Positions 15,550-51,027 of a stretch of 64,000 nucleotides of DNA are shown here, in pieces (within the stretch, counting starts at the first letter, position 1; every line of letters starts with the position of its first letter). Both the position numbers and the translations under genes were made by a program. Below the pieces are notes generated by a model. The model searched no databases. It was not told the DNA's origin and was given only the letters and a program-made list of their open reading frames with translations. The stretch spans positions 372,001 to 436,000 of the forward strand of contig NIVC01000513.1 of assembly GCA_002269645.1 (NCBI GenBank), given 5' to 3'. The DNA is from Macrostomum lignano. Lineage: Eukaryota.

Positions 15550-16095
15550 ATGTCCGAGTCTGCAGAGGATAATAGTAATATTCAGCAGTTGATCAGCTCA
15601 TTCAGCTGCGCTATTTGCGGCCTAAGATTTAGCCTGTCTTCACAGTCAAAGTGCAGATACTTTCGGCACGTTCAGAGGCATGGGCTGCAGATGGACTCTA
15701 CTTTTGTGGCTAGGAGTGAGACCTCCGAGCCGCAGCAACCCGACATTCGGAGCTCTAAGCAGCGTTTTCATTGCACCCATTGCGATCAAAGCTTTACGAA
15801 TAAGCATCTTCTCTATACTCACAGCTTTACTCACTCCGAGGTTCGGCTTTTTAAATGCGACCACTGCCGCGCCGATTTTAAGGTGCTGTCAGCTCTGTGT
15901 AGGCACAGGAAAATTCACTCGGCTGATAAACCGTTTCAGTGCGGCTACTGCAACAAGCGATTTCATCGTCGCGATCATTATCGCCTGCACGAAATGGTGC
16001 ACACACGAACTAGGCCGTTCGGCTGTCAGCTGTGCGAGCATCGATTCAAGTCTAGGGCTGACCAGAGGAGGCACCAGCTGAAAGCTCACGCTTGA
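15550..16095 (+). CDS. C2H2 zinc-finger protein (4 canonical fingers plus 1 atypical), ~181 aa
   Basis: Fingers are FHCTHC..H..TH, FKCDHC..HRKIH-SADKP, FQCGYC..HEMVH-TRTRP and FGCQLC..HQLKAH, with TGEKP-like linkers. Acceptor TTTCCAG at 15546 lies just before ATG 15550. Confidence 0.9.
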   Translation: MSESAEDNSNIQQLISSFSCAICGLRFSLSSQSKCRYFRHVQRHGLQMDSTFVARSETSEPQQPDIRSSKQRFHCTHCDQSFTNKHLLYTHSFTHSEVRLFKCDHCRADFKVLSALCRHRKIHSADKPFQCGYCNKRFHRRDHYRLHEMVHTRTRPFGCQLCEHRFKSRADQRRHQLKAHA

Positions 16096-28030: not shown

Positions 28031-29129
28031 GTAGTTAGCGATAAAAACACAAAATTATGCACTATAGTGGATTTAATTATGTATATTTACATAAAAATAC
28101 ACGGTAGGTATAATGCAGGTGCATATTAAAAATGTACATATTGGTGCATAATGCATATAGGTGTACAAACTTAGGTATAGCAAAATACACACAATGATAT
28201 TATCGTTATATTGGCAGACGGTAAAACTGGCAAAATAGCAGGTACATATCGCTTTGTTAGTGTAGTAGGCAGATTCAAGTATACTGCACGAAAACTAAAC
28301 ATAGGTTGAAATACACACACACACAGTAGATGCAAGTATAATGCAACCGTATATAGGCAAAAAACACTGTAGATTCAAATTAATGGAGGTGCATGGGCTA
28401 AAATATACACACGGAAGGTACAAATTGTGATATATGCAACATATGTACGCAAAATTAAGCATATATTGACATAATGTAGGTGCAAACAATGGTAAAATAT
28501 CCGGCCCACCTAGTAAGGGATATTCGAGACACGCATGAAGGCATTCCTCTCCAGGGGCGAGTACAGTGAGGGCGGAGAAACAGAGAGCCAGTCCCTCCCC
28601 AGCTGAGTGCAAAGCGACCGACACTGCATCTAGCGCCAGACAGCGGAGACCAAGGCGGGCTGAGTAATGTTTCGAGGGGATCCCAATGTACAGTGAGCTA
28701 TTTTCATCCAGACAAGGGGACCCTCACCTAGGAGAGCTATTTTTCCTCCCCAAATGGGGGCTTCCAAATAGGATTTTAGCGGCTCCCAAGTGCCGCGCAG
28801 ACAGGCGAATCTCAGTCAGGGGAGACTGTGTAAGGGAGACAATTTTCTCCCTAGGGGTGAGCCATCTGAATTAGTCTTTTAACCGCAGTCAACCCCATTC
28901 CTATCTACTCAGTGTATACTGCGGGGTTCCCCTAAACCACTTACAGGGAGAAAAAACCACAAACCCTCAATCAACCTCCATCCGCTCCCTCAGTGCTGTC
29001 TCATATGCCGCCTCCTCCTCAACGGTCTCGAATCAGTAGTCGGCCGACTGCAATGTGAAAATTAAAACATTCAATGTAGATAGAATATATGCATTGTATA
29101 TGATTAGATGAATTGTGTATGCAGTGTAA

Positions 29130-30168
29130 TATCTTACCAAAGGTGCGTCCCACGCAGTAGGGCGCGCTCCTGGACCGGCCAGGTATGCCTCAGAGTCGGA
29201 CGCATGCGAATTTCGCCCCATTAGCCAATCCTGGTGTAGCGTCTCCGCCTCCAACACCTGTAGATCAGCCCCCCTCGACACCAAAGTATCGAGAACCCGA
29301 TTAAAGGCCTCGACAAAGCTGTCTTGGGGAGGCAAGCCGTCGGGGTGACGAGACCTCAGCCACTCAATATCACTGCGGAAAAATGAGGCCACAATGCGTG
29401 GAAAGCGCTCGCGGACCATGGCGATCTCCTCGGACATATCCAAGTCCTCATCGCCAAAGAGAAGGATCGTAGCGGCTGATGGTATCGAGGCCCGGCTGGA
29501 GGTGGAGGAGGCAGAGTTGGCAGCGGCAGAGGCACCAGAGTTGGCAGAGGAGGCAGCACCAGGGGCGACAGCGGCGGCAGCACCAGGGGCGGTAGCGGCG
29601 GCAGCAGAGGCAGCAGAGGCACCAGAGTCGGCATAGGAGGCAGCACCAGGGGCGGTAGCGGCGGTCGCAGCAGAGGCACCAGAGTCGACAGCACCAGGGG
29701 CGGCAGCGGCAGCAGAGGCACCAGAGTCGGCAGAGGTGGCAGCACCAGGGGAGGTAGCGGCGGTCGCAGCAGAGGCACCAGAGTCGGCAGCACCAGGGGC
29801 GGCAGCGGCAGAGGCAGAGGCGGCAGCGACAGAGGCGGCAGAGGCAGAGGCGGCAGCGACAGAGGCGGCGTTCACACCCCTCCGATAGTCAGCGGCGGGA
29901 GGTCGAAAATCTCAGACTCTGGGTCGCTATCATAGGTATTACCCCACGGGATGTCGAAAATCTCATACTCCGGGTCGCTATCATAGGTAATAGCCCACAA
30001 AGCCCAAGATAAGGCTATATCAGCACCCCAATTTTCAGGATATTCAGGCTCGCCGTTTTCTATGCCTATAGGGATTTTGTGTTCGGGTATATCACCGTCG
30101 AGGGCGGCTAATTCTTCAGATGGGCGGTTGTTATCCCAGAGGGTGGATAGAGCTCGGCGGCGGGACAT
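29130..30168 (-). pseudogene. Unknown-domain gene, copy 1 (Ala-rich linker plus conserved ~110-aa C-terminal domain), 1-bp frameshift at ~29874
   Basis: Closely paralogous to the C-terminal two thirds of ORF 36805..37983 (RERFPRI.ASFF..DI.WLRSRHP...LEAETLHQDWLMGRNS.ASDSEAYLAGPGARPTAW). GGGGTGTGAAC versus GGGGTTGTGAAT shows the missing base. TATA-like element at ~30241. Confidence 0.7.
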
Positions 30169-30281: not shown

Positions 30282-30901
30282 CTACCAGCGCTGACTCTCG
30301 TCAAACAGATTTTCCCAGGGCGGGGATTGGTAGGGTTTGAGACTCACAACCTGGAGAACGTCCTCGAGATTTTCCTCCTCCTCAGTCCTGGCTACCGGAG
30401 GGGTCTCTGTCTTGGTTCGCTTGGCCGGCAGCGGATCCTCGGGTGCCGACTTGAAGAGCTTGCCCAAACGGGCGGCAAACATCCGGTGCCACAGTTCAGG
30501 CGTGAATTCGATCGTGTAGCGCCAATTAAACTTTGGATCCCGATTGAGCCAATTGCGCCGCAAACGAATCCTCCCCTGTGAAGCCTCGACCGCCTTGAAA
30601 TTGCCCAGCACGACCCGCTTGTCCACGTGAAGACGTGCTGCCACCTCCAGCAGTGGTCGTGGCGGTGGCGCGAATTCGCGCCTGCGCGAAAATGGCGCGA
30701 ATACGCGAATTCTGTGACCAGGTCAGGGCGCGCAGCTTCGAGCTTCTTCCACTCGGCCTCGCTTAAATAGATTGCTGGGAAGCCGTCCTTCCACACTCCG
30801 GCTTCGTTGGTGTAGAGACGACGGATTTCAATTAAGTCATGCTCCGTTTCAAATGTGGGCTTTCGCACCACAAAGTTTTAGTATAGAGCGATAGAAGACA
30901 T
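30282..30901 (-). pseudogene. Tandem PC4-like (ssDNA-binding fold) gene, disrupted
   Basis: LIEIRRLYTNEAGVWKDGFPAIYLSEAEWKKL resembles the PC4 motif LIDIREYW..GE.KPG.KGISL...QW..L. The second half KRVVLGNF...IRLRRNW...IEFTPELW is similar. A 35-bp insertion causes the frameshift. Confidence 0.55.
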
Positions 30902-31162: not shown

Positions 31163-32452
31163 ATGACTAAACGCAGCGCAGCATCGACAGCTTTCCTGGC
31201 TGACAAGAGGCAACGTCTTTATGGTAAGTTTTAATTAATTTCCGACGGTTGTTTATCAGTCTAGACGGGTTTTGAGTTGCTGCAGCAGCGAGCTTCTATG
31301 AATTGGCAAGGGGCAGGAGCATGCAGGAATTCAGAGTGCTGCGACAGGGGGCTTACGAGTTTGAGTAGGGAGGGCGCGCAAACAAAGAGCCAGGCAGGAT
31401 AACAGCTGCGGGCTGGGGTTAAAAAAATTGCAGAGCGTTTCAGCGGGAGAGCTTGCGCGCGAGTGGTTATGCGTGAGCGCAAACAATGAGCCAGACCGAT
31501 AAAAAATGGTGGGCGCTCTGACAGCTTCAGGCGCATGCGGGAATTCAGAGTGCTGCGACAGGGGGCTTACGAGTTTGAGTAGGGAGGGTGCGCAAACAAA
31601 GAGCAGGTCGGATAACGGCTGCGGGCTGGGGTTAAAAAAAATTGCAGACGCGTGTCGGCAGGAGGGCTTGCGTGCAAGGGTTATGTGGGAGCGCAAACAA
31701 AGAGCAGGCTGGATAACAGCTGCGGGCTGGGGTTAAAAAAATTGCAGACGCGTGTCGGCAGGAGGGCCTGAGCGCAAGGGGTTATGCAGGAGCACAAACA
31801 ATGAGCCGGTTGGAGTCTGATCCTGGGGTGCCGCGAATTGACAGATTCTTCTGATTTTTTATTTTCTTGTTTTTTCAGACGCGTTTGTTCCGCCTGCCCA
31901 ACCTGAATCAGTTACCGGACCGGGTAAGTTATCTAGCCCCCATTCCCCAGACAGACCCGGGCTGACTCACACTCCCATTCATTCCCTGCAGGCTTTACGG
32001 CCCGGCTAGATAATCAACGTGACCTGCCCAAGTTTAGGGCAAAGGGCGTCGAGTATGTGGTGCGCATTACTAACACCGAAGATTTGCGGGAGGTGTTTGC
32101 CGACATGCTCGATGTCTTTAAGCAGGATTTGGCGGGGGAAGACTTTATGGCCGCGAAATTCGAGAGCGACAACATGCTCAAAGCGGCCCATACTCCCCCG
32201 GTGCGTGCAGCCCGCATGACAGCAGAGTTGTTGTTTAAGCACATTGACAAGATTGTGCAGTCGGATGCCACTGTATTGACGGGCAACTTTTCTATCCGTC
32301 TGCTAAAGGCCTGGGTGCCTCAGGTTGGCTGTGCCCTCGAGAACAAGCATCTGGAGGAGCGCCATGCCTTCTCCAAGCACTATGTCCACATCACCAACAC
32401 GGATAAGAGGTGCCTGCTGCGAGCTCTAGTTGTGGCCTGCGCCTACCTGCAA
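31163..32452 (+). pseudogene. Maverick/Polinton pPolB N-terminal part, spliced: join(31163..31223,31879..31923,31992..~32452)
   Basis: Two GTAAGT...CAG introns (both phase 1) give an open frame MTKRSAASTAFLADKRQRLY-DAFVPPAQPESVTGP-GFTARLD...HITNTDKRCLLRALVVACAYL. The I.N.D..CL.RA.VVA motif is typical of the N-terminal region of Polinton PolB. Confidence 0.7.
31300..31810. repeat. ~120-bp imperfect tandem repeats in PolB intron 1
   Basis: Recurring gataacagctgcgggctggggttaaaaaaattgcaga and gaattcagagtgctgcgacagggggcttacgag blocks. Confidence 0.8.
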
Positions 32453-32454
32453 TT

Positions 32455-35205
32455 TGTGGCCTCATCAGTCCACTGCCCCAAACTCGAACCGCCGGGAGGC
32501 TCGTACTGGCCGGGAGAGCACCGATACACGACCCTGTGGAGCAGGAGGATATAGTGTTAAGGGGGGAAACAGACAGAGACAGGGGGAAAAATTACTTACG
32601 AATCAGTATCAGCGTAAATGACTCGGGTCCCTAGGCCCTCCAAAGCCTCGTATGGTCGCAGCCGGGCGTGGGAGGTGGTGAAAACGCTAATTAGTACATT
32701 GGCGTACTTAAAGGCCCGCTCGCCAGCACCACCAATTCGGGGCTTGAATTCGAGCATCATGAAGCTCTCCCCGACAGGCTCGCACGACTTGACCTTGATG
32801 GACGGGTCCGTCAGACGCTGCAGCCACGCCTCGTAGCTGTCCACAATCTCCGTGGAGGTCAAGTCGTCGCGCTGGCAGAATTTGCCCCAGAGCCTGCAGT
32901 TTTAGGGAATATGTAGGTATATCTGGCTACTGTAAGTAGAAAAACACGTCCCCCACGGCAAGTAAAAACCCCAACTTACGAGTTTAGAAAAATCTTGGCA
33001 ACAAAGCGCAGGCCAGGATTTTCTTCCACCTTTTCCAGCCGGACACCTTCGCGCTCGAAAAAGCTGGCCATGTAGGCGGCCTTGGCGTCCTCAGTCATCC
33101 CCGGCGAACCGCTAGACTCGGCCTTGAGCTTCAAAAAGGTGTTTACATAGTCTGCAAACAGCCTGCTCCGAGTCTCGGCCCAATAGGCCAGGGCATGAAC
33201 TGACTGCGGCATGTAACCCAACTGCAGGGCCTTGTGGAGCTCTGGGGTCGACCATGTACCGCGGAGCATTCTCTCAGCGTCAGTGTGTGTACACTCGCTG
33301 CTGCACTGGGTCTCCATGCAGACACGGCAGAGGCCGAAAACCAGCTTCTTGCTAATCTTGGCGGGCAGTAGCGGGATGTGGAGATTGGTAGGCGGCAGAA
33401 TCGAGACCTCGGCGATGCCAAAGTACCGGGCCAGCCTCATCCAGTAGATGAGGCTCGGGGTGGTGAACCGAGTGCCCGACAGGGTACTTGTCAAACTTGT
33501 TGACAGTCGGGTAGAGCGACACCTAAAGGGAAAGTGGTGGTAGTTGTAGTAGAATATAGATTTAGTATAGTAAACTGTGCAAGAGAAACTTACCACATCC
33601 CGATAGCACAGCTCCACAGTCTCGGTGGCCTCGGCGTGCGGGACAAAAGCCTCGGTGCGGCCGCTAAATAGGGCCTCCTCCAGGCGAATAGGCGGCTGGA
33701 CTGGCGCTCCCTCGTCCTGGTAGTCGTGCTCCCACAGGACACGTACATTGTAGGCCGTGGAGAGCAGTCGAGTGAAGCGCTCAGTCTCTTCATAAATTGC
33801 CCGCATTGGCTGGTTTTTGAGCGGGTGCAGCACGTCGCCGTTAGGGAAGCACTTGGGACAGCCATTATAGAAGCAGCCGTGGAATTGGAGCACTGTCCTA
33901 GTCTCTGGGTCGAAGTCGTCCACCTTTCGACCCATGGCGAAAGCCTCGCCGCCAGAGTCGGCTGTCCGCAACCGGCCACCAAACTCGGTTGCATTCAAAG
34001 GTGCAAGCCAGCACCGCGCCTTGTACGACTGCACATCTGACCGGCGGGAAATCACCCCAAGAGTGTTGGGCTCCATAAACTTGGTAGTGAAAACAGCCAT
34101 GGCCAAGCCTGCAATGGTGTTAGATTGGACAAATGCGTCCAGTCCGCAAATGTCCTTAATCAGGCGTGCGTATTTTAGACACCCTTCCCGCAAAATTAGA
34201 GTGTCTTGCAGGCAGTAGTCCAAGTATTCCTTGTTGAAATTAAACACTTGACCCTCCTGCTTGGCCAGCCAGTCTGCGATGGAGTCATGCTGCTTGTTTT
34301 TCTTCCCGCCGTACATTTCAATCGAACAGTAAGGCCCTACGTAGTCCTAAATTTGCGGTTGATTAAACACATGCGGGAAATCTCCCTTGGTCAGCTGGGT
34401 GCCCAAACCAAGCGCCTTTGGGAATTGCGCCAGACCAATAGGAATGAAGTTGAGGCTGTCCTTGAATGTTGTGATCTTGTCGCTCTTCATGTACATTAAA
34501 CGGCTATTCTGGAAGATCACTTGGGGCTTCTTCTTGGCCAGTCCGTTGAGTAGGGCTCCGAGCAGGAGGAATGCGTCATACGCGGAGCCATTGTGCGCAA
34601 TAGCAATAGCCCCCTGCTTGAACACACTAGTCAACCAGCAGTAAAAGGCATCGATAGAGTGCGGCCCAACCGAAACAAACTCTCGCATCCCGCAAGCGCA
34701 GTCATTGTGGGAGACACAGCCAGTAAAATCGCGCGCCAAATCGCGTCCCGCAATGCAATTGGCTGAGCTGTGCAACCCCCCGCACGCGCTACAGCAGGGC
34801 CTGGGGAAGAGTTTGGGACACGACTCGCACGAGGTAGCTGCCGTAACCAAGTGTACCCGGTGCTGCTTGTCAGAGTCTACGTACGTCTCAAAATCGTAGT
34901 AAACGTACGGGGCGCTAGATTCTTTGGCTTTGGGCGGGGTGACAAAGCACTCGTGGGTGGCAGTTTCTGCGTACTGCTTACAGACTGGACACTTGGCGTG
35001 ACCGCACTGATGCTCGGGGGCCTAGCCTACTCTTTGCTCTTCCAGATAGCCGCACGTCCCGCAAACGTGAACCGAATCACAGCGCGATCTACCAGCCTTA
35101 TTCTTGCGCTTGTGATTTTCAAGGCACTGAGCATTGTAGCAATTTAGCCCACAATCATTGCCTTCTGAGGCAAAACTGTAGAACGCAAATCGGCAGTCGA
35201 TATAG
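32455..35205 (-). pseudogene. Maverick/Polinton protein-primed DNA polymerase B, exonuclease and polymerase domains, with three introns (32534-32599, 32894-32979, 33523-33593)
   Basis: YYDFETY (ExoI), IAHNGSAYDAF (ExoII), FKDSLNF, FPHVFN, YCLQDTLIL (ExoIII), QFHGCFYNGC insertion; spliced motifs YRDV|VSLYP, KIFLNS|LWGKF and YADTDS|VVY. In-frame stop at 34347 and frameshifts near 33450 and 35020. Confidence 0.93.
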
Positions 35206-36200
35206 GACGCACGAGTGCCTAGCAAGGCCCAGCAGTCGGATTGCTTTCTTCACGTTTGGTCCATCATCAGTGATAACGGAAACAATTGCATCCATTAGAT
35301 GCCAGTCAGATAACACCTATAAAAGTTTAGAGTTTTTGGAGTTTTTTACAATAAACTCCAAATGTACACGTAATCCAAATATACTAAATTCTTTAACTAA
35401 AGGGCCAGCTTTAGAAAAAAGCATTGATGCTTTTACACTATTCTACTCTCCTTATGCTACTCTCATCTTTTAACAACATATTTCTGTGGCTAGCTCAAAA
35501 TTATTCATCGTTGATATTTATCAATATCAGTTTTTTTTTACTTTTTACTTTTTGTTTTCCAAATTTACTCACATTTCTCACAACCTCTGCAATACATTCG
35601 CCTGTTGGTGAACCAGGAACTTGGGAGCAGCAGAGCGTTACCTGCTCCAGCTTTCCAATTGGAGCAATAAAGTGCATAACAAGCCCTATGAACCACAAGC
35701 TGATGTCCAGCCATCTGTGCTAAGGGCGAAAGATGTACTATCTTTTAGCACACTCTCGACTGATTGGCGAACAGAATCGTATAGCTGTGGCACAGCAACC
35801 TTCGCCATGTAGTCGGCGGATAGAATGGAGTAGCGTGGGAAACGCTTTGCCAAGAACCTCGAGAATCCAAGTCGCTCAACCTGACTAAATGGCTCCCTAT
35901 CGAACGCAATAAGCTCTGCCATAAGAAGAGGGTGGGTGGGAAAAGGGGGTATTTTACAAGCCTATTTGAAGTGTACTTTTAGACTGTCTTTAGAAAAAAG
36001 AATTACTGGTCAGACTAGTAGTAGACTTACCAAGATCCCTTGTTAACTCTTTAGCCTTTGGGTCATCTGCTGGGCATTTTGATTGGGGCATAAATGATGC
36101 AGATATAGGCTGTTGCTGCTGCTGTGGTGTAACTGGTGTTCCTTGGGGGGTGGAACTTGAGTTGGCCTTGCCCTTTGGTGTTATTGAGCTAGCAGACAAA
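35205..36200 (-). pseudogene. Spliced hAT/ZBED-type transposase fragment
   Basis: AELIAFDREPFSQVERLGF...FALSTDGWTS, WFIGLVMHFI and, after an intron (acceptor 35317), VLSDWHLMDAIVSVITDDGPNVKKAIRLL. It abuts the PolB fragment. Confidence 0.8.
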
Positions 36201-36804: not shown

Positions 36805-37983
36805 TTAATAACAATGTCCATCTGGAAAAGAAATCAGACGTGTGAGTGGAAAAGGACCATTTCTTCGGGCCATCTTTAAAATATAATGATGAATTGCGAC
36901 CCACGCAGTCGGGCGCGCTCCAGGACCGGCCAGGTACGCCTCTGAGTCAGAGGCATTCGAATTGCGCCCCATCAACCAGTCCTGGTGCAGAGTCTCAGCC
37001 TCCAGCACCTCCCGTAGGCCGGCCCGCCTCGAAACCAAAGTATAGAGAACCCTATCAAAGGCTCTGATAAAGGTGTCTTGGGAAAGCAGGCCGCCAGGAT
37101 GCCGAGACCTCAGCCAGTCGATATCCCCGCAGAAAAATGAGGCAAGGATGCGTGGAAAGCGCTCGCGAGCCATGGCAAACTCCCCAGGCACGTCCTCGTC
37201 CTCATCACCAAGGAGGAGGAGCGTAGCGGCAGATGATATAGAGCCCCGGTTGGAGGTAGTCGATGCAGAGGCGGCAGCAGACAGGACATCAGCCGATGCA
37301 GAGGCGTCAGCAGAGGCATTGCTCGAGACGGGGCCGGCTGTGGTCAGCTCCTCAACAGAGACCTCAAAGAGGGCGGCAGAGGCAGCAGTCAAATCGGAGG
37401 CAGCAGCAGGGGCACCATTCACAACCCCTCCAATAGCCAGCAGCGGGAGGTTAGACTTTAGCAGCGGGAAAACTTTAGACTCGGGGTCGCTATCATCGGC
37501 CATAGCCCAAGCTAAATATTGATCAACCTCCCAATTATCAGTTCCGTTGTTTTCAGTGCCTAGGGGAACTATGTGTTCGGGGACGCAGAGGCCATCGTCT
37601 GGACTGCCGCAGGTTGGCATTGCAGCAGTCATAGGGCGGAGACTTGGTGCAGAGTCGAACTGTGGCCTAGCTACAGTGGCGTACTGTTGTAGTCCAGGAT
37701 AAGTCTCGGGCAGATGTCGTCGGTAGCAGTCTTCTTCATACTGCTTGTTGTTGGCTTGCATTAAGTTGGATACTCGTTCAATTTCACGCGCGTTTGCTTG
37801 TTGGTGCGCCTTTTTTGCAACTGGGCACTTATGCGAGTAAGCCAGGTGTGCGCCATTGCAGTTTGCGCACTTTAGGGTATCAGTCTTGGGACATTCAGTA
37901 GATTGATGATCACCGGCGCATTTGTTGCATGTGATGGAATTGGTACTCAACACAACTTTTTTCACTGGATTCTCTACCAACAT
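36805..37983 (-). CDS. 392-aa chimeric ORF: gag/ORF1p-like CCHC zinc knuckles fused to the unknown domain (copy 2)
   Basis: CNKCAGDHQSTEC and KCANCNGAHLAYSHKCP match the zinc-knuckle pair of non-LTR retrotransposon ORF1 proteins. The remainder is paralogous to 29130-30168. Open frame; possible acceptor TGCTGCAG just upstream of the ATG. Confidence 0.65.
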   Translation of the reverse strand: MLVENPVKKVVLSTNSITCNKCAGDHQSTECPKTDTLKCANCNGAHLAYSHKCPVAKKAHQQANAREIERVSNLMQANNKQYEEDCYRRHLPETYPGLQQYATVARPQFDSAPSLRPMTAAMPTCGSPDDGLCVPEHIVPLGTENNGTDNWEVDQYLAWAMADDSDPESKVFPLLKSNLPLLAIGGVVNGAPAAASDLTAASAALFEVSVEELTTAGPVSSNASADASASADVLSAAASASTTSNRGSISSAATLLLLGDEDEDVPGEFAMARERFPRILASFFCGDIDWLRSRHPGGLLSQDTFIRAFDRVLYTLVSRRAGLREVLEAETLHQDWLMGRNSNASDSEAYLAGPGARPTAWVAIHHYILKMARRNGPFPLTRLISFPDGHCY

Positions 37984-40480: not shown

Positions 40481-42077
40481 TAAAATCTGGAGTACCGCTG
40501 CTCTGGGTGTCAGTGAATCTACTGCCGAGCCGCAAATGAACCAGCAGGCGCATCAGAGCGACAATTTTTTTGTGTTTTATGACAGTTGAAATAATATAAG
40601 CAGGATAGGAAATTGAGGAATGTCTGATAATCTAAGGTGTCTAAGTTGCATCGTCTAGTGGAAACCTATGAGGGCTATAAAATGACTACATTGTTACATG
40701 TTAAACTTTACTATGTCATTATGTTAGCTTAGTGACTGTGATTCACACAGTTAATACGCTATTGCCAGGGTGCTTTTCATTAACCACACTACCATACAGC
40801 TATCAAAGATAATCGAAATTATATTGTGAAAGAACAAATGCTGCAACAGCGACTGCAAAACAAAGACAAATTTAATGAACATGTAAAAAATAATGTGATA
40901 CTATTTAAACACCAGTAACACACAGAACGAGGAAAATTTTAACTACGATTGAACTAGAACATCATCGGAAATAGACAAAAGTAAAAAAAATTATTATTAA
41001 ATGACAGATAGCAGAGGCACACCTGAACTGTGTTAACTTACTGTGACAAAATAAAATTTGATTTCAAAGGCAGTCTATCATTGCGATCAAAATATCAAAC
41101 CTACTCCATAGCCTGTTTGCTACCTTTGCTATCGAAATTTTCAAAGCAAACATCGTGTATGCAGCAATTGTTATTGTGTTATACTTGTGTTATATATATA
41201 TTCTCAATAGACAAAAATATTAAGAAAAGCATTAAATAACAGCGGACCATTCGCCGACTTTAGTTAAGTTACATTAGAACAATTCGCACTTTAAGTATTC
41301 AAGCAGAAACAACCGCATCCGAAACTTTCTTTTGACGCCTTTTGTCTTCCCTTGCTAGCTGATTGAGGTTTTTTTCATGTCCGCCCAAAGCGGAAAAAAG
41401 CGATCCGCTGGTAACTGCACTTACGCTTAATTTCACAAATATCCGCCTCTGGAGCCACCCCAGTGGCACCGATATTATCGGAAGAAGATGTACCAATTGG
41501 GACCGATAATATCGGCTTGCGAGCATGTCGTATGTCAAGACGACACGCTTTCTACCCGATAATATCATACTGAGCTATGCATTTAAATAGCATAGGGGCC
41601 TAGTATATTATACCGGAGTAGAATGCATGATGGGGCTTCTGGGACAAAATTTTTCACGTCCTCCACAATCCTTTTAAATCCATCTATATTATCCCTGACA
41701 GAATCAGAAAAAAGGGGGGTCGCACTCGCTCACAAAACGTCCTCCATAATCCCATTAAATCCATCCATATTATCCCCGACAGAATCAGAGCATAACAGGT
41801 GTCGCACTTGCTCCGAAAACTTCGAACATAATCCCATTAAATCCATCCATATTATTCCTGAATCAGAGGTTCACACTTGTTCCGAAAACTTCGAACATAA
41901 TCCTCCTAACCTATCCTCCTTCCTCCACGACAGAATCAGAGCATAACATAATCCTTTCCTTTGACATCCACCCATAGCATCTTCGAAACAATCAGAAAAG
42001 AATCTGCATTCTTCTCCCCACATTCAATTTGCAACGCGAAACCAGATCCCTAAGACTTTAAATCATCAGCGCAGGGT

Positions 42078-44675
42078 CCTTACCCTTTGAAAAAAATTAA
42101 ATTCGCTCGTAAAAATGTTTCCAATCGTCTCTCCAGGTTCTTATTACAAAGCGCACGAGCCTAATTACAGGAGTAAGTACCAATGCAAACTAGAATGCAG
42201 TGAGTACATGAGAAAATATTGGCCCGGCGTTGATATCAATGTCCCTAATATTAATCTAGCTCTCCAAAGACACTGGCTCTTAAGTATGGAGTAACCCACG
42301 TAAAAGATTACGACAGCTACTATAACTTTGCAGAAATCATTAGACAATTGCGTTAAAAATCTCAAGCCGAAACTCAGTATTTGTCATGAGGGAAGTTCTG
42401 GGACAAAAGAGAATAAACCCCCCACAGATAAACATCTAGTAAAATCTATCTATACATAATGCTCTTACGTTTAAAATTAGCTATCCTAGTGCAATACTTA
42501 CAACCACTCATCTAAGGGGGATAACATCAGTCTACCACCCCTCCCCTTCCTAGGACAGCAAAAAAATCAACATAATCTAAGGGCGAAAAGTAGCGGTATT
42601 CTCACTTAAGTTACAGGACTTATAATTAATAGTATGCAGCCAAAAAAACTGAAAGGCCAAAATCGTTTGCATTCTGGCCTTCGCTCAACACTGAATTCTT
42701 CCTCGTCTGGGCTCAGTTAAAGTGAAAATCTCCCCCACGCGCGCTGCACCCACACACATACACTCCTCTCTCCCCCACACACGAGACGCCCGCGCCCACA
42801 ACCTGTGAGAATGGGGTAAGAGATTTTGAGTACACATGCGCGCATTTTTTCATACCACTCTATACTCTATTCTCGGCAAGCATACTTAAAAGGGGAACGC
42901 ATTTTCTCACATTCTCTCAATGATCAACGTCAGTACAAACTATTCACCGTTGAAATCAACACCCACCCCCATCAGAGCATAACAGAGGTAGTTAAGTAGT
43001 GGTTTTTGGTAAGATCATGCTAGCTTTTTATGGTAATTATGTCACAAAGTAAAAAGAAGACTTATCAATAGTATATGTCTTGTCTCCAACAAACAAAAAG
43101 TTGCTCTTCATGTTGGAGGCCAGCAGAACATAGTTCAGAAGATGTTTTGCCATCTTTATTTTCCTATTAAAGCAGGAAAAAGAGAAGGGCTCATTTTTTA
43201 CAGCCTTGAATCGCTGTTTCAACAGAATAGTTCTTAATCAGTTCTTCTACTTGTCCAGTCGTCACAGTCCGACATATGGGACAGGGAATGCTATTTGCCT
43301 CCGCATTGTATATGCGATCAAGACAGTTGCGACAGAAAGTGTGGCCGCAGACTAGCAGTCGGGAGTCGGCGAGCCAGTCGAGGCAAACGCTACACTCGAG
43401 TCCTTCTGGGATATTCTCTGATCTCGTTCTGTCCAACTCTTTTTGTTTCACACGCCTTTTTTCTGAGAAATGAGAAAGAAGAGTTGTAAGAAATGAAACA
43501 ATGCTATAAATAAGAAAATAAAAAGTTTCAGACAAATGCACAGATAAAGGTACACCGATTTGAGTCTTACCTCTACTGACTTAAAGAAATCACTGTTTCT
43601 TTTCAGAGACGATCCGTTCCAATGTTGGAAAAACTCTAAAGGGATATTTTTCAAATCACTCTCTCGATAAAGTAATTAAACCTTTCTTTTTCCTTGCTTC
43701 AATTTGGATTCAAGTTCTTTTAATCGTTTCTCTTCTGTAGCTGGCGAGGGAATATATGTTAGTAAAGAGGTCTGGGCGGTTTATGCTTCTGGTTTAATAT
43801 AGCCAGCCGGGGTGAGGGTTTTGAGGGTTTGTTCGGTGGGGAGAGAGATTTAGCCGAAGCCAGCTTAATCAGCCAGAGCAACGAGTTTAGATAAAGTGGG
43901 GGTTGGGCTGTGGGCGTGGGGGGGGGATAGAGATTTAGCCGAAGCCAGCTTAGGATCCTAAATTCTTTAGGATTTTAGGATTTTGGCCTTACCCGAGGCC
44001 AGATCGAAGAGGATTTTGGCCTCGACTTTTCAAATGCAGCGGTCGCATTTGGTCAGGGCTGAGAATAATAAAAGTCTAATAAATTCAAAAGTCTTCTCAG
44101 TTCCTTGTTAGGAGCGCACAAAATAAACCCTGCTCCCGAGCCTCCGCCCTCTCTCCCCATGCACCAGATCTCTCTTCCCCAACACCCACCCTCGCCGCCA
44201 ACCCCCAACCCCAACTTTTCCTTACCAAAATAACAGCTTTAACTAGCTTCCGAGCGATCGATTCCCTCCACCCGCTTGAAGTCCCATATTGTCTAATCTC
44301 CTAAGCATTTCTTTGTCTCAGCGATTCTTCTCCTCTGGAAAATCCTTATACTTAACGTCGTGCCACATGCAGACAGAGTCTAGCTCGTTCACAGGCTCAT
44401 GCCCAGGGTTTGGATTATTGTTTTTATCTAACTAAATTTCAAGTGGATTCAAAGGCCCGCAATTCCGGCTACAAAGGATTCGTAGCCAGGAATTGTCCAG
44501 CCTTTGTTTGGATGAGGAAGCTTTTCAATTAATCCATGTGAATCTAAGTTACCACCATAGCGTTGCATTATTTATTTAAAATTTTCTTTTTAATAAATGG
44601 GAGAAGAAAAACAAATCTATCTACTATAGTGACAAATGATTCTTTGTAGGCAAAAATGCAGTCGCCAAACTCGCA
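42078..44675 (+). repeat. ~2.6-kb block duplicated at 61421-64000
   Basis: Near-identical sequence from ccttaccctt to gtcgccaaactcgca, with a few indels (e.g. ~41 bp at 43014-43055 absent in copy 2). Confidence 0.97.
43191..43462 (-). CDS. C3HC4 RING-finger coding exon (copy 1); gene probably disrupted
   Basis: CSVCLDWLADSRLLVCGHTFCRNCL...PCPICR. Acceptor TTCTCAG at 43463; the nearest upstream donor (~43550) is out of phase. Confidence 0.8.
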
Positions 44676-44900
44676 GAACTAAGTAATGAATCAAAACAAA
44701 CAGTTGAAAGATGGCTCTCTAAGCAAGCAGTCTACAAAGTCTATTTCCCACCAGTAAAATTTGAAAGGCCCCATTTCAGTATTTATAAACCTAATGAGGC
44801 GCACCAAGCAGATCTTCTGTTTCTCCCCAATGACTCAGGCTACAAGTATGTTCCCACAGTTATAGACATCGCCTCCAGATATTAGGAAGCGAGACCACTT
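44597..44900 (+). pseudogene. Maverick-type rve integrase, N-terminal fragment
   Basis: ...VERWLSKQAVYKVYFPP..FERPHF...PNEAHQADLLFLPNDSGYKYVPTVIDIASRY*EARPL, the Polinton/adintovirus integrase pattern. Two stops; cut off at a TTAA. Confidence 0.85.
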
Positions 44901-44902
44901 AA

Positions 44903-46997
44903 CCCCGAGGATGCGGGTGGCCTGCTCTGCAGGCCATAGCTAATGGTCTATGGCTTGCGAATTATTTGAATGCTGTTTCGAAAATAAGTTTGCATAACCG
45001 TAGCTTGTGGCTCAGCAGGCCATGCCTATTTTTGTATACAGAAAACATTTGTGAATCACTGTCAACGAGTTTTTCTATCTGATAAAGTATTTTTAATAAG
45101 AAACAGTAAAAATCAAGAAGATAAATTGCTATAACGTATAAACAATGTTTAACAGCTAAACAACAACAATAACATAACCTGTTTATAACCAGATGGAATA
45201 TTGGGTATAGCTTCGGTTTCTCGCTCTAAATTATTTTCTTGATTTTCAGAAATTAATACTTTAATACTTTTAAACCTGCGTTACTGATTATTTTCCGGCC
45301 TTTCCAGATTTGGAATTCAGAAACCTGCTTCATTTTCCTGCTTTGGAGTTTGGACTATTACATTGTGTCACTATTGACTTTTTACTTGCTTCTTTTACAT
45401 TTGTCTTTTACAGCCTGTCGACACCACCCATAAATCTGTTGCACGACACAACTGTCTGTTGCTTCTGCTGGATGACCAGTTCGTTTCGCACGATTCGGTG
45501 AACAGGGTGAAGTTGGGCTACGCCTTGCGTGTCAAGGAAGTAAACTTTCTTTAGGCCCGAGCTCTTCCTGTCAATTATTTTCAACGCTAGCACGTTTCCT
45601 TTGCGCATAAACATGTAGCTTGGAGCTTGGTTTCCCTGGATACCACGAAGGCCATCTGGGACAACGCGATAGGCGCGAACTGTGCATGTCAGCATGGTGC
45701 TCCGCTGCAGCAGATACATCGCAAGATGATAAGATCCGAACCAGCTATCGCAAAAGACGTGATAACCTAAATTCAATACGTACCTAACTGCCTCCACCAG
45801 GACTTTCTCACTCAGAGACAGCCCCCCCCCCACCCGAGACCTGGACCGAATCGCTCATTCTCAGCTCTACTAAAGTGCACTAAGAAGTTGCTCACGTAAC
45901 CGGATCTAGCTTCGCAAAGACAATACAATTTGATGCAATATCGCGCTTTCTTGTATGGAATATATTGACGAAACATGACGCGACCCCTGAACAGAACAAG
46001 CTCTTCGTCGACACTAATTTTTTTTTCTGGCATGTACACATTGCGACATATCTCAGCTACACGCGTAATAAATGGTCTTGCCTTTGCTAGCGGGTCGTTT
46101 CCATCGAAGTGTTTGCAGTCATATAAGCGCAGCTGGCTACTGATCTGTTGGTACCTGTCCCTTGTCAGGCGAGCGAGTTGTTGGAAGAAAGGTGTTGCGT
46201 AAAAATCATCTTTGCTCCAATAGTTGGCGATCTCGAGCTTTTTACGAGCTCGTAACTAACTCGTAACTTTTTTTCTCGAGCTCGTAACTATTCCCATGTA
46301 AAGCGACATGGCGACAAATTTCTTCATCTCGTCCACGGTCACGTCTTTCCACGCAGAGAACCTTTGAGGCAAGTTTGGCATCGATGCTTGTAGCTCTTCG
46401 AATTTGCGCCACGCCTGCGCATCGGTCCAAGCGCAGAGCTGTTGCAGTAGGTCAGCAATCAGAAACAGCTTGAAAAACGCAGCTGGATCGTCATCGGCAG
46501 TCTCTGGCCTCGGTAAGTCAGGATCCATACCAGGCATTCCCAAGAATTCGGCTCTGCATCTGGCCATTGATCCTGCCCAGCTTCCCGTGCCACCCAAGCA
46601 TCATTTGGTAAGCCTCCGGCGTCTTCATTTGGCTGGAGATGCAGGTCCCCCTCTTCTTCATCTTCACCCTCATCCGCTGTTAGCCAGCCTTCCTCCTCTA
46701 GTTCGGAGTCGGTATCTGGATCAAAATGCACTTGAGCAGCCCTGACAAACACTCCGATACTTGGAAACTATTGCACTAAATGAAGCTGCTGATCGATGAT
46801 TCAATTAACTAATTGGCACTTGACTTCTATCATGTAGCTTCAAGCTTTCTTGATTTGATGAATCCCACAATTTTACTGTGTCATTTATACCCACCCACCC
46901 GTCCATCCACCCCACTCCACTTTGTTTTTTGCTTTCATGTTTATCCTTTATTGCTACGAGTATAAGCTAATCCACCTGCTATCGCAGGCTACGGGGG
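44903..46997 (-). mobile_element. piggyBac DNA transposon, decayed
   Basis: Starts TTAA|CCCC at 44899-44906 and has a degenerate GGGG end at ~46997; transposase remnants inside. Confidence 0.8.
45408..46752 (-). pseudogene. piggyBac transposase (DDE_Tnp_1_7 type) pseudogene
   Basis: WKDVTVDEMKKFVAMSLYMG, ISVDEELVLFRGRVMFRQYIP.K..Y.IK, YHVFCDSWF, NRFMGGVDRL; frameshifts. Confidence 0.92.
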
Positions 46998-47029
46998 TGT
47001 AAAAAATATGCTGAAATAGTCTATTTCAG

Positions 47030-47095
47030 CCCTCGCCCCCCGCCTCGCCCTCGCCCTCCGCCTCGCCCTCGCACTCCGCCTCGCCCTCGCCCTGG
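47030..47095. repeat. Short (cctcgc)n tract
   Basis: Visible. Confidence 0.8.
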
Positions 47096-48382
47096 GCCCC
47101 TAAGCCGAAGCCAGTATTTCTGTAAAGTTCAAAAGTCGCAATTTAAGTTTTTTTAATAGGCGCGCAATTTGTTCTATCAAGATATTTCGGGTGAAGCGGG
47201 GATGGGACGTGAATAAGGTCTCTGATAGCAAGAACATTAGAACTAGAATTTGGTAATTGACCATTGAACTTAAAGTACGTGTAAGCACGAAATATAGCAA
47301 ATAAAAGTTCGTCTAAACACAAACTTCATGAAAAGCAACACTGTTTAGATAGGAATTTTTAGTATTTACGCATTCCTTTTTTCTGATCAACATGCGGACG
47401 TGGAAAAGCTAGGGAGTGAAAAATTACCTCTTCATCAAAGTTTCGCAAGCCGATTTCAGCGTCCGGAATATGAGATACAGAACGGAGCTTTCTTAAAACC
47501 CGTCGCTCCATTTTTGCCCACTTCAACCTTTATTTCGGCCTTAATTGAGTTCTTCAGCTCCGCAGCGACAGCAACCGCAATCGAAGCTGGATTGTACGAT
47601 GACACGTCAGGTTCGACATTTGCCAGAAGGCTTAACACCGCAGGAAAACACAGTCGGACTTGCCGCTTATTGCCTCAACTTAGAATACTCGGACACAGAT
47701 CTGACAGAGCTGAAACCACATTTAAAAGTATTTCACTGGGCCGCTGTGATCAAGGAGTAGAACTAGCGAATGAAGCTAATCTGCAGCGACAAGGCTAAAC
47801 TACAGCGGCTGCCCACAATGCGAGTCGAGTGAAAAAAGATTAGAACTATTACTATTACAAAATAATCATGTTGGTGCAGGTCCGCACAGAGGGCTGAAAC
47901 TATATCAGCAAACGTGGACAAATATTTGTCTGCTATTATTAGCTCTTCAAATAGTGAATACTCAATACTTTGTGGGAATGGTGGCTTGTATAATTGTTGT
48001 CGTCATTTTCTGCGATTATCGGCTCTAATAATGAAAAGCCATTGGTTTTGTGAAACCATCTTTTGAGTTTCAGTTAAATGAATAAACTGGCAGACAAAAA
48101 CATCTCTGGAATTAAAAATGGTCTTAATTCATTTGTTCTTGAAATTGAAAAAAAGAACTGAGACTGAATTACTGTCACTCTGAATGAGTGAGCTGAAATT
48201 TTATTAAAACGAGAGTAGCTACCTGCTGCAGCTTGTTGTTGAGTCTGACTGACTGACTTACTCGCGGGCTGTGGACAGACCGGCCGGCAAGCTGGCTGGC
48301 TGGCTGACGGTGGCTGTGAGGGCTGCGGAGCCAATAGGAGGTCGCTCAAAACCACTATAAAAGAAGGTATATTATTATTAAC

Positions 48383-48712
48383 ATGAGAAACCCATATAGC
48401 ATTATACGCTACATGCATGGAGACGTGCGGTCCATTCAGCATGAAATCAGTGATAATCTTTACCCTGCACTGCCACAAAATGGAGATTTCAGTCAGAACA
48501 AGATTAGCAAATTTTACAGCGAGTTGGTCGACTTGGCTGTGAAAGAGAACAACGGAATTGCTATCACTTGTCTTCAATATGGAACTCTATATCCGATGTT
48601 TGGCGCTGATGTGTCTGCCACACAAATGCCTACTGATAACAGCCCTGTGAATATCGTGACTAACATTGAGACGTGGACCTGTACATTATCTATGCATTTG
48701 AGAGGAAGGTGA
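48383..48712 (+). pseudogene. Possible major capsid protein C-terminal fragment
   Basis: LYPMFGADVSATQMPTDNSPVNI loosely resembles the C-terminal YP.F.FD.S motif of Polinton/adintovirus major capsid proteins. Lies directly upstream of the penton-like ORF. Confidence 0.35.
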
Positions 48713-48758
48713 AGCTTAACATGATCAACAATTCATCCAGTAAAGTTTAAATATTTTT

Positions 48759-49120
48759 GTGGGTGAAAAAATGGAAGCCATAGCCGAAAGACTAAACAAC
48801 ATTGTTTCACACTCTAAGGAGAGCATTCCTATTACAAAAACTGGGCGAATTAATGACTCAAACGGGATATTTGTTCAAAAATTAGAGCAGTCGATTCACC
48901 TGGATCCAGGTGCTAATTACCATGTCTATCTTAACGACTTCACCAGTTGGTCAAACGTTCCCAATGTGACGGCAGCAAATAATAAGTTTTATTACAAATG
49001 GAAAGGTGCAGCAGCAGAACCTGTGGTATTCCCTGTGAGCACGCAAAGTGTGGATACCTACAATTACTTTCTAGAAAACGTCTTTACTAAAAGAGGCCAT
49101 TTTGAGACACTTGAAGCCAT
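48759..49120 (+). pseudogene. Minor capsid (penton)-like protein, N-terminal fragment
   Basis: SIHLDPGANYHVYLNDFTSWSNVPNVTAANNKFYY fits the PI.LD...Y..L......S.PNI...NN.F.Y penton pattern of Polintons/adintoviruses. Truncated by the right TIR. Confidence 0.6.
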
Positions 49121-49546
49121 TTTGAGCAAGTGCGACCCCCCTTTTTTCTGATTCTGTCAGGGATAATATGGATGGATTTAATGGGATTATGGAGGACGTG
49201 AAAAATTTTGTCCCAGAAGCCCCCTCATGCCTTCTACTTTGTACATATCTTGTTTTTATCAAGTGTTGTGTCTGCACTCAATTTAATTTCATGCACCTCG
49301 TAGTATATTCCAACTTGCTTATATTATTAAAATGTTGTGTATGCACACATACGTTATCTACATGCACCTCGCGCGTTAGTATTCAAATAAATTGTTTGTA
49401 AAATTTGGACAGTTAATTGAATATGGTGTTGAGTTTTTACCATTTTTTCGAGTAATTATATTTAGAATGATATTTAGAACATTCTGTGTGTAAACACTGT
49501 GACTGATTATAACAAAAAACTTACCAATTCCAGCTACATCATCATC

Positions 49547-49800: not shown

Positions 49801-50637
49801 AACCACCGCCCTGACAACGGCCATAAGAACGTGGCCCGTGACACTGAATCTGCTGGGTTTTCAGAATTCTGACGCAAAAAACGCAAATTAGACTACTATC
49901 TTAAAATGAAGTAAGTAGTATATGACAACGCTATCCTAAGCGTGATATACTTCAATATGTACTCGTATCTGTACAATCATCCCACATATGTACATTAATC
50001 CCCATCTATCTCAAATTATATATGTACATTGTCTACTTCCATATGTCTATCCTCAATTCTATATGTACATTGTCTACTTGTACAGTACATACGTCTACAT
50101 GTGCATTAATCTATCACAATTTCTATATGTACAGTGTCTTACATTAATCCCCAGACAACCCCGCTCTCTGTGTATCTGAATCGTCAAGATTACATGTACA
50201 ACTCGAAACACTACGTGTGTACAATTGTGCGGGGGCCGGGCGCGCGCCAGCTGTACAATCTCATCTACTACTAAATGAGTCAACTAATTGTATAGTTCGC
50301 TTCGTATATGTATAAACTATTTAGAAAGAAGATATATTTACATTAAATCAGTAGCATATTACAGGAAATAATTTATGTACAACATTACCAGCAAATAGAG
50401 TATACAGAAAATTTTACATTGTTTTTCAATAATTTTCTTTTTATAAATGATTTTAAACAAGTTTGACACGCAAAATATGTACAATAGATTTTTACATTGG
50501 CAATTTCACCGCATACAATACAAAAATTCTTTATGTACATTTGACATGCAAATTATTGTACAACAAAAAGATTTTACTCAAATAAATTTAGCAATACAAA
50601 AATTTACATTTAATAGTCAGTCGCAAGGACGACATTA

Positions 50638-51027
50638 TTATTTATAACCATAAGGCCTGCTGCAGGCACCGTACACACGTTTCGTCAGGACGCGTTTAAA
50701 GGTCTTGTCCATACTGATCGTATGAATGGTACAAGCCGCTTTGTCGCGCCTGAATTGAAACTGTGGCAGCTGCAGAGAGCCGCCGTGTAGCAGGGTGTTG
50801 CGCAGGTCGTCGCTGCGTTCCCGATCTCCGGAGTCAGGCGGATGCCCTTGCATTTCAGGACCTGGCTCCGGACACCGGCCGCATCCTCGACGATGTAAGT
50901 GTAGAGCTTGGGCCCCCCACTTACAAAGTCGGTCATCCGGCTGCCTGCAGGCACTTCTTCGGTCCACATTCCGAGGCTCGTGCCATGGGGCGGCTCCCAT
51001 TGGCCCTCGGAATGCCGGTAAACGACC
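50638..51027 (-). pseudogene. Last exon of a second Maverick pPolB
   Basis: Acceptor CCCCACACAG at 51028, then VVYRHSEGQWEPPHGTSLGMWTEE...FVSGGPKLY...LKCKGI...RPYGYK*. One frameshift near 50820. Confidence 0.88.

What the first reader, a model, noticed from the sequence alone, without database searches (positions are those of the whole stretch)
31163..35205. Maverick/Polinton DNA polymerase with at least five spliceosomal introns, three splitting catalytic motifs A, B and C
Seen: GTAAGT...AG introns at 33523-33593 (71 bp), 32894-32979 (86 bp) and 32534-32599 (66 bp). Their removal restores YRDV|VSLYP, KIFLNS|LWGKF and YADTDS|VVY. Two further introns (31224-31878, 31924-31991) give an open N-terminus. 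Known: these are the three core B-family polymerase motifs, and Polinton genes are generally described as compact single ORFs. Inference: an intron-rich lineage of virus-like transposons whose replicase is only functional after host splicing, giving the host or element a splicing-level switch such as germline restriction. Whether this has been reported was not checked.
Basis: partly seen in the sequence, partly recalled or inferred. Interest (0 to 1): 0.88.

Follow-up and report, generated by a model that had tools for sequence, protein, structure and literature searches.

The report
Spliced mini-Polinton with palindromic satellites
A flatworm genome carries many 9-kb virus-like jumping elements whose DNA polymerase gene is cut by six introns that are spliced out; they have no detectable gene for inserting themselves or for a shell, so they likely borrow these from full-size relatives, and they share their ends with equally long DNA palindromes without recognisable genes that likely ride on them.

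Summary
The five intervals are real spliceosomal introns. Whole copies elsewhere in G000 have six. Across 30 copies the three motif introns keep GT/GC..AG ends while their lengths vary, and contigs of RNA-type runs skip all six. The window copy is dead: it has an inversion (so the two N-terminal introns lie on the opposite strand), a stop, a frameshift and a lost 3' end.

The larger result is the element. Whole copies are 8.8-9.8 kb with long terminal inverted repeats, ACTAC..GTAGT ends and 6-bp target duplications. They encode a spliced protein-primed polymerase (about 1,276 aa, under purifying selection), in family A also a PC4-like gene, and no detectable integrase, ATPase, protease or capsid. 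A second family (60-70% protein identity) shares the intron positions. Each family has its own whole-element palindromes of 8.7-9.4 kb with the same ends.

Best reading: a reduced, host-spliced Polinton derivative that copies itself and likely borrows integrase from co-resident full Polintons. The helper was not identified. Nothing here supports a splicing switch. I found no description in ten literature searches. Verdict: new variant of a known kind.

The parts
28390..28824 (.). Decayed remnants of the left terminal inverted repeat
   Evidence: short 81-86% matches to both repeats of a whole copy
29033..30168 (-). Accessory orphan gene 'ORF X' (about 330 aa in a whole copy; present in 2 of 6 whole family-A copies), frameshifted here
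   Evidence: only Macrostomum-named homologues; no atlas hit (106); no Pfam hit over cut-off (139)
30282..30901 (-). PC4-like gene, likely a single-stranded-DNA-binding protein, head-to-head with the polymerase; broken here
   Evidence: 29% identity over 99 aa, E 2e-9, to a co-resident Polinton ORF that passes the PF02229 cut-off; atlas 0.88, lead only; early stop in the window copy
31163..31223 (+). pPolB exon 1 (61 nt, ATG)
31224..31878 (+). Intron 1 (655 nt; 690-1051 nt in six whole copies)
   Evidence: homologous 730-nt intron skipped in runs X1 and X6
31879..31923 (+). pPolB exon 2 (45 nt)
31924..31991 (+). Intron 2 (68 nt)
   Evidence: homologous 69-nt intron skipped in X1, X6, X14
31992..32461 (+). 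pPolB exon 3, 5' part (likely terminal-protein and start of OTU-like region), cut at the inversion breakpoint
   Evidence: domain labels inferred from PMC11071308 passages
33594..35158 (-). pPolB exon 4, 3' part (Cys-rich region, exonuclease, VSR-like insert, up to YRDV of motif A), inverted; in-frame stop near 34347
   Evidence: VSR label rests on a named homologue (P0059) and a recalled motif
33523..33593 (-). Intron 4, in motif A (71 nt, phase 0)
   Evidence: homologous 83-nt intron skipped in X1, X6, X14
32980..33522 (-). pPolB exon 5 (543 nt here, 548 in most copies; 5 nt missing near 33435)
32894..32979 (-). Intron 5, in motif B (86 nt, phase 2)
   Evidence: homologous 81-nt intron skipped in X1, X6, X14
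32600..32893 (-). pPolB exon 6 (294 nt)
32534..32599 (-). Intron 6, at the end of motif C (66 nt, phase 2)
   Evidence: homologous 72-nt intron bridged by contig 23 of run X6 only (table 8)
32460..32533 (-). pPolB exon 7, 5' part only; the rest of the exon and the right repeat are absent
36900..37583 (-). Detached second fragment of ORF X
   Evidence: 84% to a whole copy

Best explanation

Steps. (1) Shown: the gene is spliced at six GT..AG introns (contigs of runs guessed to be RNA). (2) Shown: exons are under purifying selection among copies, and the database record of the spliced 967-aa part folds like phi29 polymerase (predicted structure). (3) Inferred: the roughly 1,276-aa product primes at the ACT-ACT (family A) or ACTACG (family B) ends through its N-terminal terminal-protein region, helped by the PC4-like protein; displaced strands fold back through the repeats, which would explain why a copy's two repeats are far more alike than repeats of different copies. 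(4) Shown: copies were inserted precisely with 6-bp duplications although no integrase is detectable inside. Inferred: a retroviral-type Polinton integrase acts in trans. (5) Shown: each family has whole-element palindromes with the same ends and similar size. Inferred: these are non-coding satellites copied by the mini element's polymerase and inserted by the same integrase.
For: Architecture. Six whole family-A copies are 8.76-9.76 kb, with repeats of about 0.9-1.4 kb and 6-bp duplications in 5 of 6. Four family-B copies are 9.49-9.70 kb with duplications in 4 of 4, one inside a TAC microsatellite. A terminal 31-mer has 212 matches; among the first 100 listed, 33 of 36 facing pairs span 8-10.6 kb.

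Missing genes. 0 of 18 minis and palindromes hit any of 13 integrase, ATPase, capsid or protease queries at E 0.01, against 4 of 4 control Polintons. Short copies leave about 1 kb between the left repeat and the ATG, which holds the PC4-like gene, and about 0.2 kb after the stop.

Splicing; the database protein ALD16274.1 (P0199) is contiguous across motifs A, B and C. Selection: dN/dS 0.13-0.20 in the bins with dS above 0.02 (423 of 435 pairs; exons 4-6 only); exons 1-6 are open and of constant length in 5 of 6 whole copies. Fold: pLDDT 87.6, best match phi29 polymerase E 5e-22.

Repeats: 97.7-99.9% within five copies against about 82-90% for the long matches between copies. Helpers available: 150 listed matches for each of two Polinton integrase queries, most without stops; 5 of 6 full Polintons checked make 6-bp duplications. 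The two closest viral relatives are single-frame and have an integrase next door.
Against: Every integrase-bearing family whose end was seen starts AGTAG, whereas minis start ACTAC (one family's end was not in the fetched stretch). So the helper would have to accept a different end, and none was identified. Only 100 of 212 terminal matches were listed, and 5 of 17 polymerase-less pairs (plus two family-B pairs) were not examined, so a partner with matching ends is not excluded. No co-resident whole Polinton with a polymerase of this clade was found (one decayed copy). The RNA status of the runs is a guess, they are contigs, and motif-C splicing rests on one contig of one run. Replication, priming and trans-integration were not tested. 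Family B has no detectable PC4-like gene.
Confidence: 0.62

Rival explanations
1. Bipartite Polinton: the mini is the replication segment, and an unseen partner with the same ACTAC ends carries integrase and virion genes, as in segmented bidnaviruses with matching termini.
For: The distinct ends would suit a dedicated integrase. Sizes are uniform. Matching segment termini are described for bidnaviruses (PMC8502044 passage). Polymerase-truncated Polintons with full virion modules exist in G000.
Against: Of 17 polymerase-less pairs among 36, 7 fetched are palindromes without recognisable genes, 1 is a palindrome holding a nested AGTAG-ended Polinton with its own duplication, and 4 more carry the palindrome core at their midpoint. 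The polymerase-truncated Polintons have AGTAG ends.
Confidence: 0.15
2. The introns are a regulated switch (for example germline-restricted splicing) that controls element activity: the first reader's idea.
For: Three of six introns sit in motifs A, B and C, unlikely under random placement (P about 2e-5 to 2e-4 for 7-15-codon windows chosen after the fact). Retention of any of them would break a catalytic motif.
Against: Donors and acceptors are consensus and almost invariant. Spliced joints appear in all three RNA-type runs. In family B the motif-A intron is 81 nt and in frame without a stop in most copies. No tissue data were available.
Confidence: 0.1
3. No helper is needed: the polymerase's own nuclease-like insert, or host repair of staggered breaks, inserts the linear DNA and gives the 6-bp duplications.
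For: No integrase inside and no same-end helper found. A VSR endonuclease domain is reported in related pPolBs (PMC10748475 passages).
Against: Ends are precise and the duplication length is constant at 6 bp, the same as for integrase-bearing Polintons here and in vertebrates (PMC8097293). Integrase-bearing relatives also carry this region, so it did not replace the integrase.
Confidence: 0.07
4. The polymerase is a domesticated, host-like gene carried passively as cargo by a non-autonomous transposon that does not use it.
For: Host-type introns and steady expression; palindromes with the same ends move without any recognisable gene.
Against: dN/dS stays low between dispersed copies and is higher (0.42-0.48, few changes) between duplicates of the dead rearranged copy. 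All copies whose flanks were examined lie inside the element or its remains; no fixed single-copy locus was seen.
Confidence: 0.06

Closest known systems
Polintons / Mavericks (animal adintoviruses); PMC8097293, PMC10748475, PMC8502044 (passages read)
   Same: PF03175-type protein-primed polymerase; long terminal inverted repeats; short repeated end motif; 6-bp target duplications; PC4-like gene shared with co-resident Polintons.
   Different: No detectable integrase, ATPase, protease or capsid genes. 8.8-9.8 kb against 12.7-24.6 kb for intact vertebrate elements. Six spliceosomal introns where intact vertebrate elements have none. Ends ACTAC..GTAGT instead of AGTAGT..ACTACT (an AC-dinucleotide end is reported in one fish).
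Introner-containing Maverick-Polinton-like elements of dinoflagellates; bioRxiv 10.1101/2025.03.18.643946 (first third of text read)
   Same: Spliceosomal-type insertions inside Polinton-like elements.
   Different: There the inserts are young repeated transposons, mostly gained after integration. Here the six introns are unlike each other, are fixed across copies, are shared between two diverged families and are spliced.
Integrase-less integrated Polinton-like virus Ca_PLV1; PMC11296320 (passages read)
   Same: Integrated without a detectable integrase; integration in trans was proposed.
   Different: Those elements are described as viruses with divergent capsid proteins, associated with entomopoxviruses. 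No spliced polymerase or palindromic satellites appear in the passages seen.
pPolB-encoding linear plasmids and bidnaviruses (PMC11071308, PMC8502044 passages); snap-back defective genomes and foldback elements (recalled)
   Same: Small linear replicon with inverted repeats and its own pPolB; palindromes resemble snap-back defective genomes.
   Different: Nuclear, spliced and integrated with 6-bp duplications; no RNA polymerase, parvoviral helicase or capsid detected by Pfam or by ORF inspection.

Membership tests
Polinton/Maverick | [quoted passage not shown] | tested here: met
   PF03175 E 1e-43 for P0199; phi29 fold; motifs match homologues
Polinton/Maverick | Terminal inverted repeats with a short repeated end motif | tested here: met
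   the motif is ACTACT or ACTACG, not AGTAGT
Polinton/Maverick | 6-bp target-site duplication | tested here: met
   5 of 6 family A, 4 of 4 family B, 7 of 7 palindromes where read (not read for L267)
Polinton/Maverick | Retroviral-type integrase gene | tested here: not met
   0 of 10 whole minis hit 4 integrase queries; 4 of 4 controls do
Polinton/Maverick | Packaging ATPase, protease, major and minor capsid genes | tested here: not met
   0 of 10 whole minis hit 9 queries; little room left
Polinton/Maverick | Intronless core genes and 13-25 kb size (intact vertebrate elements) | tested here: not met
   six introns, 8.8-9.8 kb against PMC8097293 passages
Polinton/Maverick | Terminal-protein-primed replication of a free linear form | not testable with these tools
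   inferred from domain order and ends only
Spliceosomal (U2-type) introns | GT..AG ends conserved while the interior varies, and removed from RNA | tested here: met
   RNA status of the runs is a guess
Introners | Introns are repeated copies of one transposon | tested here: not met
   no similarity among the six introns of one copy; a genome-wide search for each intron was not run
Group I/II introns or inteins | Structured ribozyme or in-frame protein insert | tested here: not met
   motif introns are 53-89 nt, mostly frame-breaking; no Rfam match over a whole copy
Bipartite (segmented) element | Partner segment with the same termini and complementary genes | tested here: inconclusive
   none among 12 of 17 polymerase-less pairs accounted for; 5 not examined; 112 terminal matches not listed

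The most novel reading that the evidence does not exclude
A three-tier Polinton satellite system in an animal. Full Polintons supply integrase and capsids; old, host-spliced 9-kb minis supply a second replication system with their own ends; gene-less palindromes parasitise the minis. Two mini families and two unrelated palindrome families have all settled at about 9 kb, which would point to packaging of a size-limited DNA in helper capsids. The placing of introns in motifs A, B and C, near sites that inteins use in other PolB genes (recalled), would reflect shielding of the gene's most conserved DNA from rival nucleases.
Probability: 0.25. Interest if true: 0.92.

Novelty: new variant of a known kind. 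Interest (0 to 1): 0.76.

Why it matters
Polinton surveys generally look for long ORFs linked to an integrase (PMC10748475 restricts itself to integrase-linked pPolBs; PMC8097293 treats predicted introns as decay). A spliced, integrase-less class would fall outside both filters, so the group's diversity may be undercounted. The family is abundant, looks recently active and is expressed in a laboratory flatworm with RNAi. That makes open questions testable in an animal: whether Polintons replicate as free protein-capped DNA, whether their integrases work in trans on different ends, and whether they make particles. The palindromes give a natural read-out of the fold-back replication model and of a size limit.

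Tried and rejected
Partner element at C106: it looked like a 21-kb element with mini ends plus integrase and capsid genes. It is a 12.1-kb AGTAG-ended Polinton with its own 6-bp duplication, nested in a palindrome. Rejected.

A 'third' polymerase family at about 54% identity is frameshifted family B.

Palindromes as long-read artefacts: rejected. The symmetry stops at the element ends, flanks differ, and each copy has its own duplication.

Coding potential of palindromes and of family B's left region: 43 stop-free stretches from one palindrome arm and 29 from one family-B copy gave no Pfam match over cut-off; no Rfam match. Short-exon genes are not excluded.

Shared intron positions in other lineages: none among 80 metagenome loci and 12 of 62 viral loci inspected. 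Motifs were contiguous by strict pattern in 74 of 80 (A), 51 of 77 (B) and 60 of 67 (C); of the loci with misses or breaks, five were inspected at or near the motifs and showed variants or frameshifts. The scan favours intronless genes.

Single-sequence fold failed (pLDDT 31.8); the alignment-based fold was used instead.

The look-up of sequencing runs listed no holder on record as RNA; the runs used are guessed RNA.

The source paper of ALD16274.1 was not found (two look-ups not held), so whether it is a cDNA or a prediction is unknown.

In one search the last exon was not counted because an anchor failed. Protein 2 had wrong coordinates and is ignored. No tree was built.
Full report
1. Observation. 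The flanking pieces match PF03175. A DNA search of G000 gave 47 matches from 40 scored candidates at 86-100% identity; 30 were fetched. In their alignment the three introns keep GT (89 of 90; one GC) and AG (90 of 90) while lengths vary 53-89, 67-89 and 65-75 nt. Column variability is 0-0.028 at donors, 0 at acceptors, 0.077-0.14 inside and 0.036-0.052 at third codon positions. These copies are not all independent: L001 is the window, and L002 and L003 duplicate the same insertion. Exon pieces added separately to an alignment of 138 homologues abut with no residues between them at motifs A, B and C in 138, 129 and 110 informative rows.

2. Splicing. Contigs of four runs were laid on a whole copy (joints checked). 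Runs X1, X6 and X14 (three studies, guessed RNA) skip the motif-A intron (3 of 3), the motif-B intron (3 of 3), intron 2 (3 of 3), intron 3 (2 of 3) and intron 1 (2 of 3). The motif-C intron is bridged by one X6 contig that also bridges the motif-B intron. Run X15 (kind unknown) shows none of the six joints, though one joint row was filtered out there. No intronless copy was seen among the 30. A database protein, ALD16274.1 (P0199, 967 aa, named only 'hypothetical protein' / 'DNA-directed DNA polymerase'), is contiguous over all three motifs; its origin was not traced. Named database proteins at 92-99% identity are from Macrostomum lignano, so the host is most likely that flatworm.

3. The window copy is dead. 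Compared with whole copies, 31836-32461 runs forward and 32460-35158 is inverted. The stretch holding intron 3 is missing, as are most of the last exon and the right repeat. There is an in-frame stop near 34347 and 5 nt are missing near 33435. The neighbouring PC4-like gene and ORF X are also broken.

4. The element. Six whole family-A copies are 8.76-9.76 kb, with repeats of about 0.9-1.4 kb beginning ACTACT and 6-bp duplications in 5 of 6. Exons 1-6 are 61, 45, 569, 1920, 548 and 294 nt and stop-free in 5 of 6 copies, while introns vary. With the 130-codon last exon this is about 1,276 aa. dN/dS between copies is 0.13-0.20 where dS exceeds 0.02 (423 of 435 pairs) and 0.37 in the 12 closest pairs; between duplicates of the dead copy it is 0.42-0.48 on few changes (last exon not counted). 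The alignment-based model of P0199 has pLDDT 87.6 and matches phi29 polymerase best. Head-to-head lies a 152-aa ORF related (E 2e-9) to a co-resident Polinton's PF02229 PC4 protein. Two of six copies and the window copy add an orphan ORF X. No integrase, ATPase, capsid or protease query hits any of 10 whole minis or 8 palindromes, while all 4 controls are hit.

5. Family B. A second family (about 70% identity in exon 5, 58-61% in exon 4) has the same plan: 9.49-9.70 kb, ends ACTACG, 6-bp duplications in 4 of 4. Intron 3 and the three motif introns lie at homologous sites in 5 of 5 copies; intron 2 matched a strict pattern in 1 of 5, and intron 1 was judged by eye. The introns therefore predate the split of the two families. 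The six introns of one copy are unlike each other. Outside the host the best relatives are 29-42% identical (named ones are from a sea anemone and a sea cucumber). The two closest viral contigs have single-frame polymerases beside an integrase. So the minis are most simply a reduced, intron-gaining offshoot of ordinary Polintons (inference; no tree was built).

6. Palindromic satellites. A family-A terminal 31-mer has 98 forward and 114 reverse matches. Among the first 100 listed are 36 facing pairs, median 9.3 kb, 33 of 36 within 8-10.6 kb. By my cross-reading contain a polymerase hit and 17 do not. Seven of the 17 were fetched: all are whole-element palindromes of 8.7-9.4 kb with arms 99.1-99.8% alike in the main self-matches; six show their own 6-bp duplication and differing flanks. 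One is a palindrome holding a nested ordinary Polinton, four carry the palindrome core at their midpoint, and five were not examined. One of three 9-9.5-kb polymerase-less family-B pairs was fetched: a 9,377-bp palindrome with family-B ends and an interior unrelated to the family-A palindromes. Both kinds have a GC-rich imperfect hairpin at the centre.

7. How it likely works. Shown: splicing, selection, precise insertion and the absence of detectable integrase. Inferred from established Polinton biology (PMC8097293 on end motifs and jumping back; PMC11071308 on terminal-protein and OTU domains in pPolB): the polymerase primes at the repeated trinucleotide ends, the PC4-like protein coats displaced strands, and fold-back through the repeats regenerates the ends. 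That fits repeats that are 97.7-99.9% alike within a copy but about 82-90% between copies. A palindrome would fold into a complete duplex. Integration in trans is inferred from the 6-bp duplications, which match those of co-resident full Polintons (5 of 6), and from the abundance of open integrase genes. Against it, every integrase-bearing family whose end was seen begins AGTAG, and no helper was identified. The convergence of four families on about 9 kb suggests a size limit, perhaps packaging; this is untested. Three of six introns in motifs A, B and C is unlikely by uniform chance (2e-5 to 2e-4, windows chosen after the fact). Two of 80 metagenome relatives have intron-like intervals at other conserved sites. 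The reason is unknown; nothing indicates a regulated switch.

8. Literature. Ten searches found no description of these families, of spliced core genes in animal Polintons, or of palindromic Polinton satellites; 'Macrostomum lignano' with 'Polinton' gave one unrelated paper. Seen as passages: PMC8097293 (no introns in intact vertebrate elements; 12.7-24.6 kb; end motifs), PMC10748475 (integrase-linked survey; VSR-bearing pPolB2; 12, 78), 10.1101/2022.07.12.499685 (intronless core genes, intron-bearing cargo; 14), PMC8502044, PMC11296320 (integrase-less integrated PLV; 75), 10.1101/2024.03.25.586562 (76), PMC12220804 (group I introns in PLVs; 77), PMC11071308, PMC4104785 (inteins in PolB3, sites not given; 129), and PMC4604429, PMC5730564, PMC5173321, PMC4490696 (no mention of Polinton, Maverick or this record under the terms searched; 83-86, 94). 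Seen as the first third of the text: 10.1101/2025.03.18.643946 (introners in dinoflagellate elements; 13). Kapitonov and Jurka 2006 was not seen. No supplements were read, and Repbase and most subscription journals were out of reach. The parallel with intein sites and with snap-back genomes is recalled. Unchecked AI notes from other genomes, seen after the corresponding results here, report intron-split Polinton polymerases, integrase-less minis and one palindromic satellite. They are leads that the class may be widespread, not support.

9. Verdict. It works like a Polinton replicon but fails membership on integrase, virion genes, size and introns: a new variant of a known kind. Interest 0.76.

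Noticed in passing
window 41617-49238: Decayed full-type Polinton of a co-resident AGTAG-ended family: both terminal repeats plus an integrase remnant near 44691-44918, with DDE_Tnp_1_7 transposase pieces (45411-46600) and a RING-finger exon (43194-43580) inside.
   Followed up: partly
window 49846-51038: Fragment of a family-B mini element: last polymerase exon and terminal repeat pieces.
   Followed up: partly
window 35160-36000 (-): Fragments that resemble a hAT transposase by recalled motifs (TDGWTS, TDDGPN), abutting the inversion breakpoint; no Pfam match. The same flank is in two duplicates of this insertion (L002, L003).
   Followed up: partly
L118-L123, L267, L101 (family A ends); L124 (family B ends): 8.7-9.4-kb whole-element palindromes with a GC-rich imperfect hairpin of 91-109 nt at the centre; 43 exact matches of the family-A core in G000.
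   Followed up: yes
L101+L103+L102 (G000:C106) and C494 (L115-L117): Roughly 12-kb AGTAG-ended Polintons with integrase and virion genes but a truncated polymerase; about 30 matches of the C106 integrase at 95-100%.
   Followed up: partly
L250:2341-2404; L265 near 3779 and 3952: Metagenome pPolB relatives with GT..AG intron-like intervals at other conserved sites (FHG|C, YC-R|SDV, DPFG|YVT); L250 also has ATPase and capsid hits.
   Followed up: partly
G000:C271 276978-317519: A mini copy whose terminal matches flank a full-type polymerase and integrase hit: possibly a second nested Polinton (coordinates; not fetched).
   Followed up: no
window 2186-4480: Long 21-bp tandem satellite.
   Followed up: no
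window 15523-16092 and 62493-62975: C2H2 zinc-finger ORF and a second RING-finger exon.
   Followed up: no
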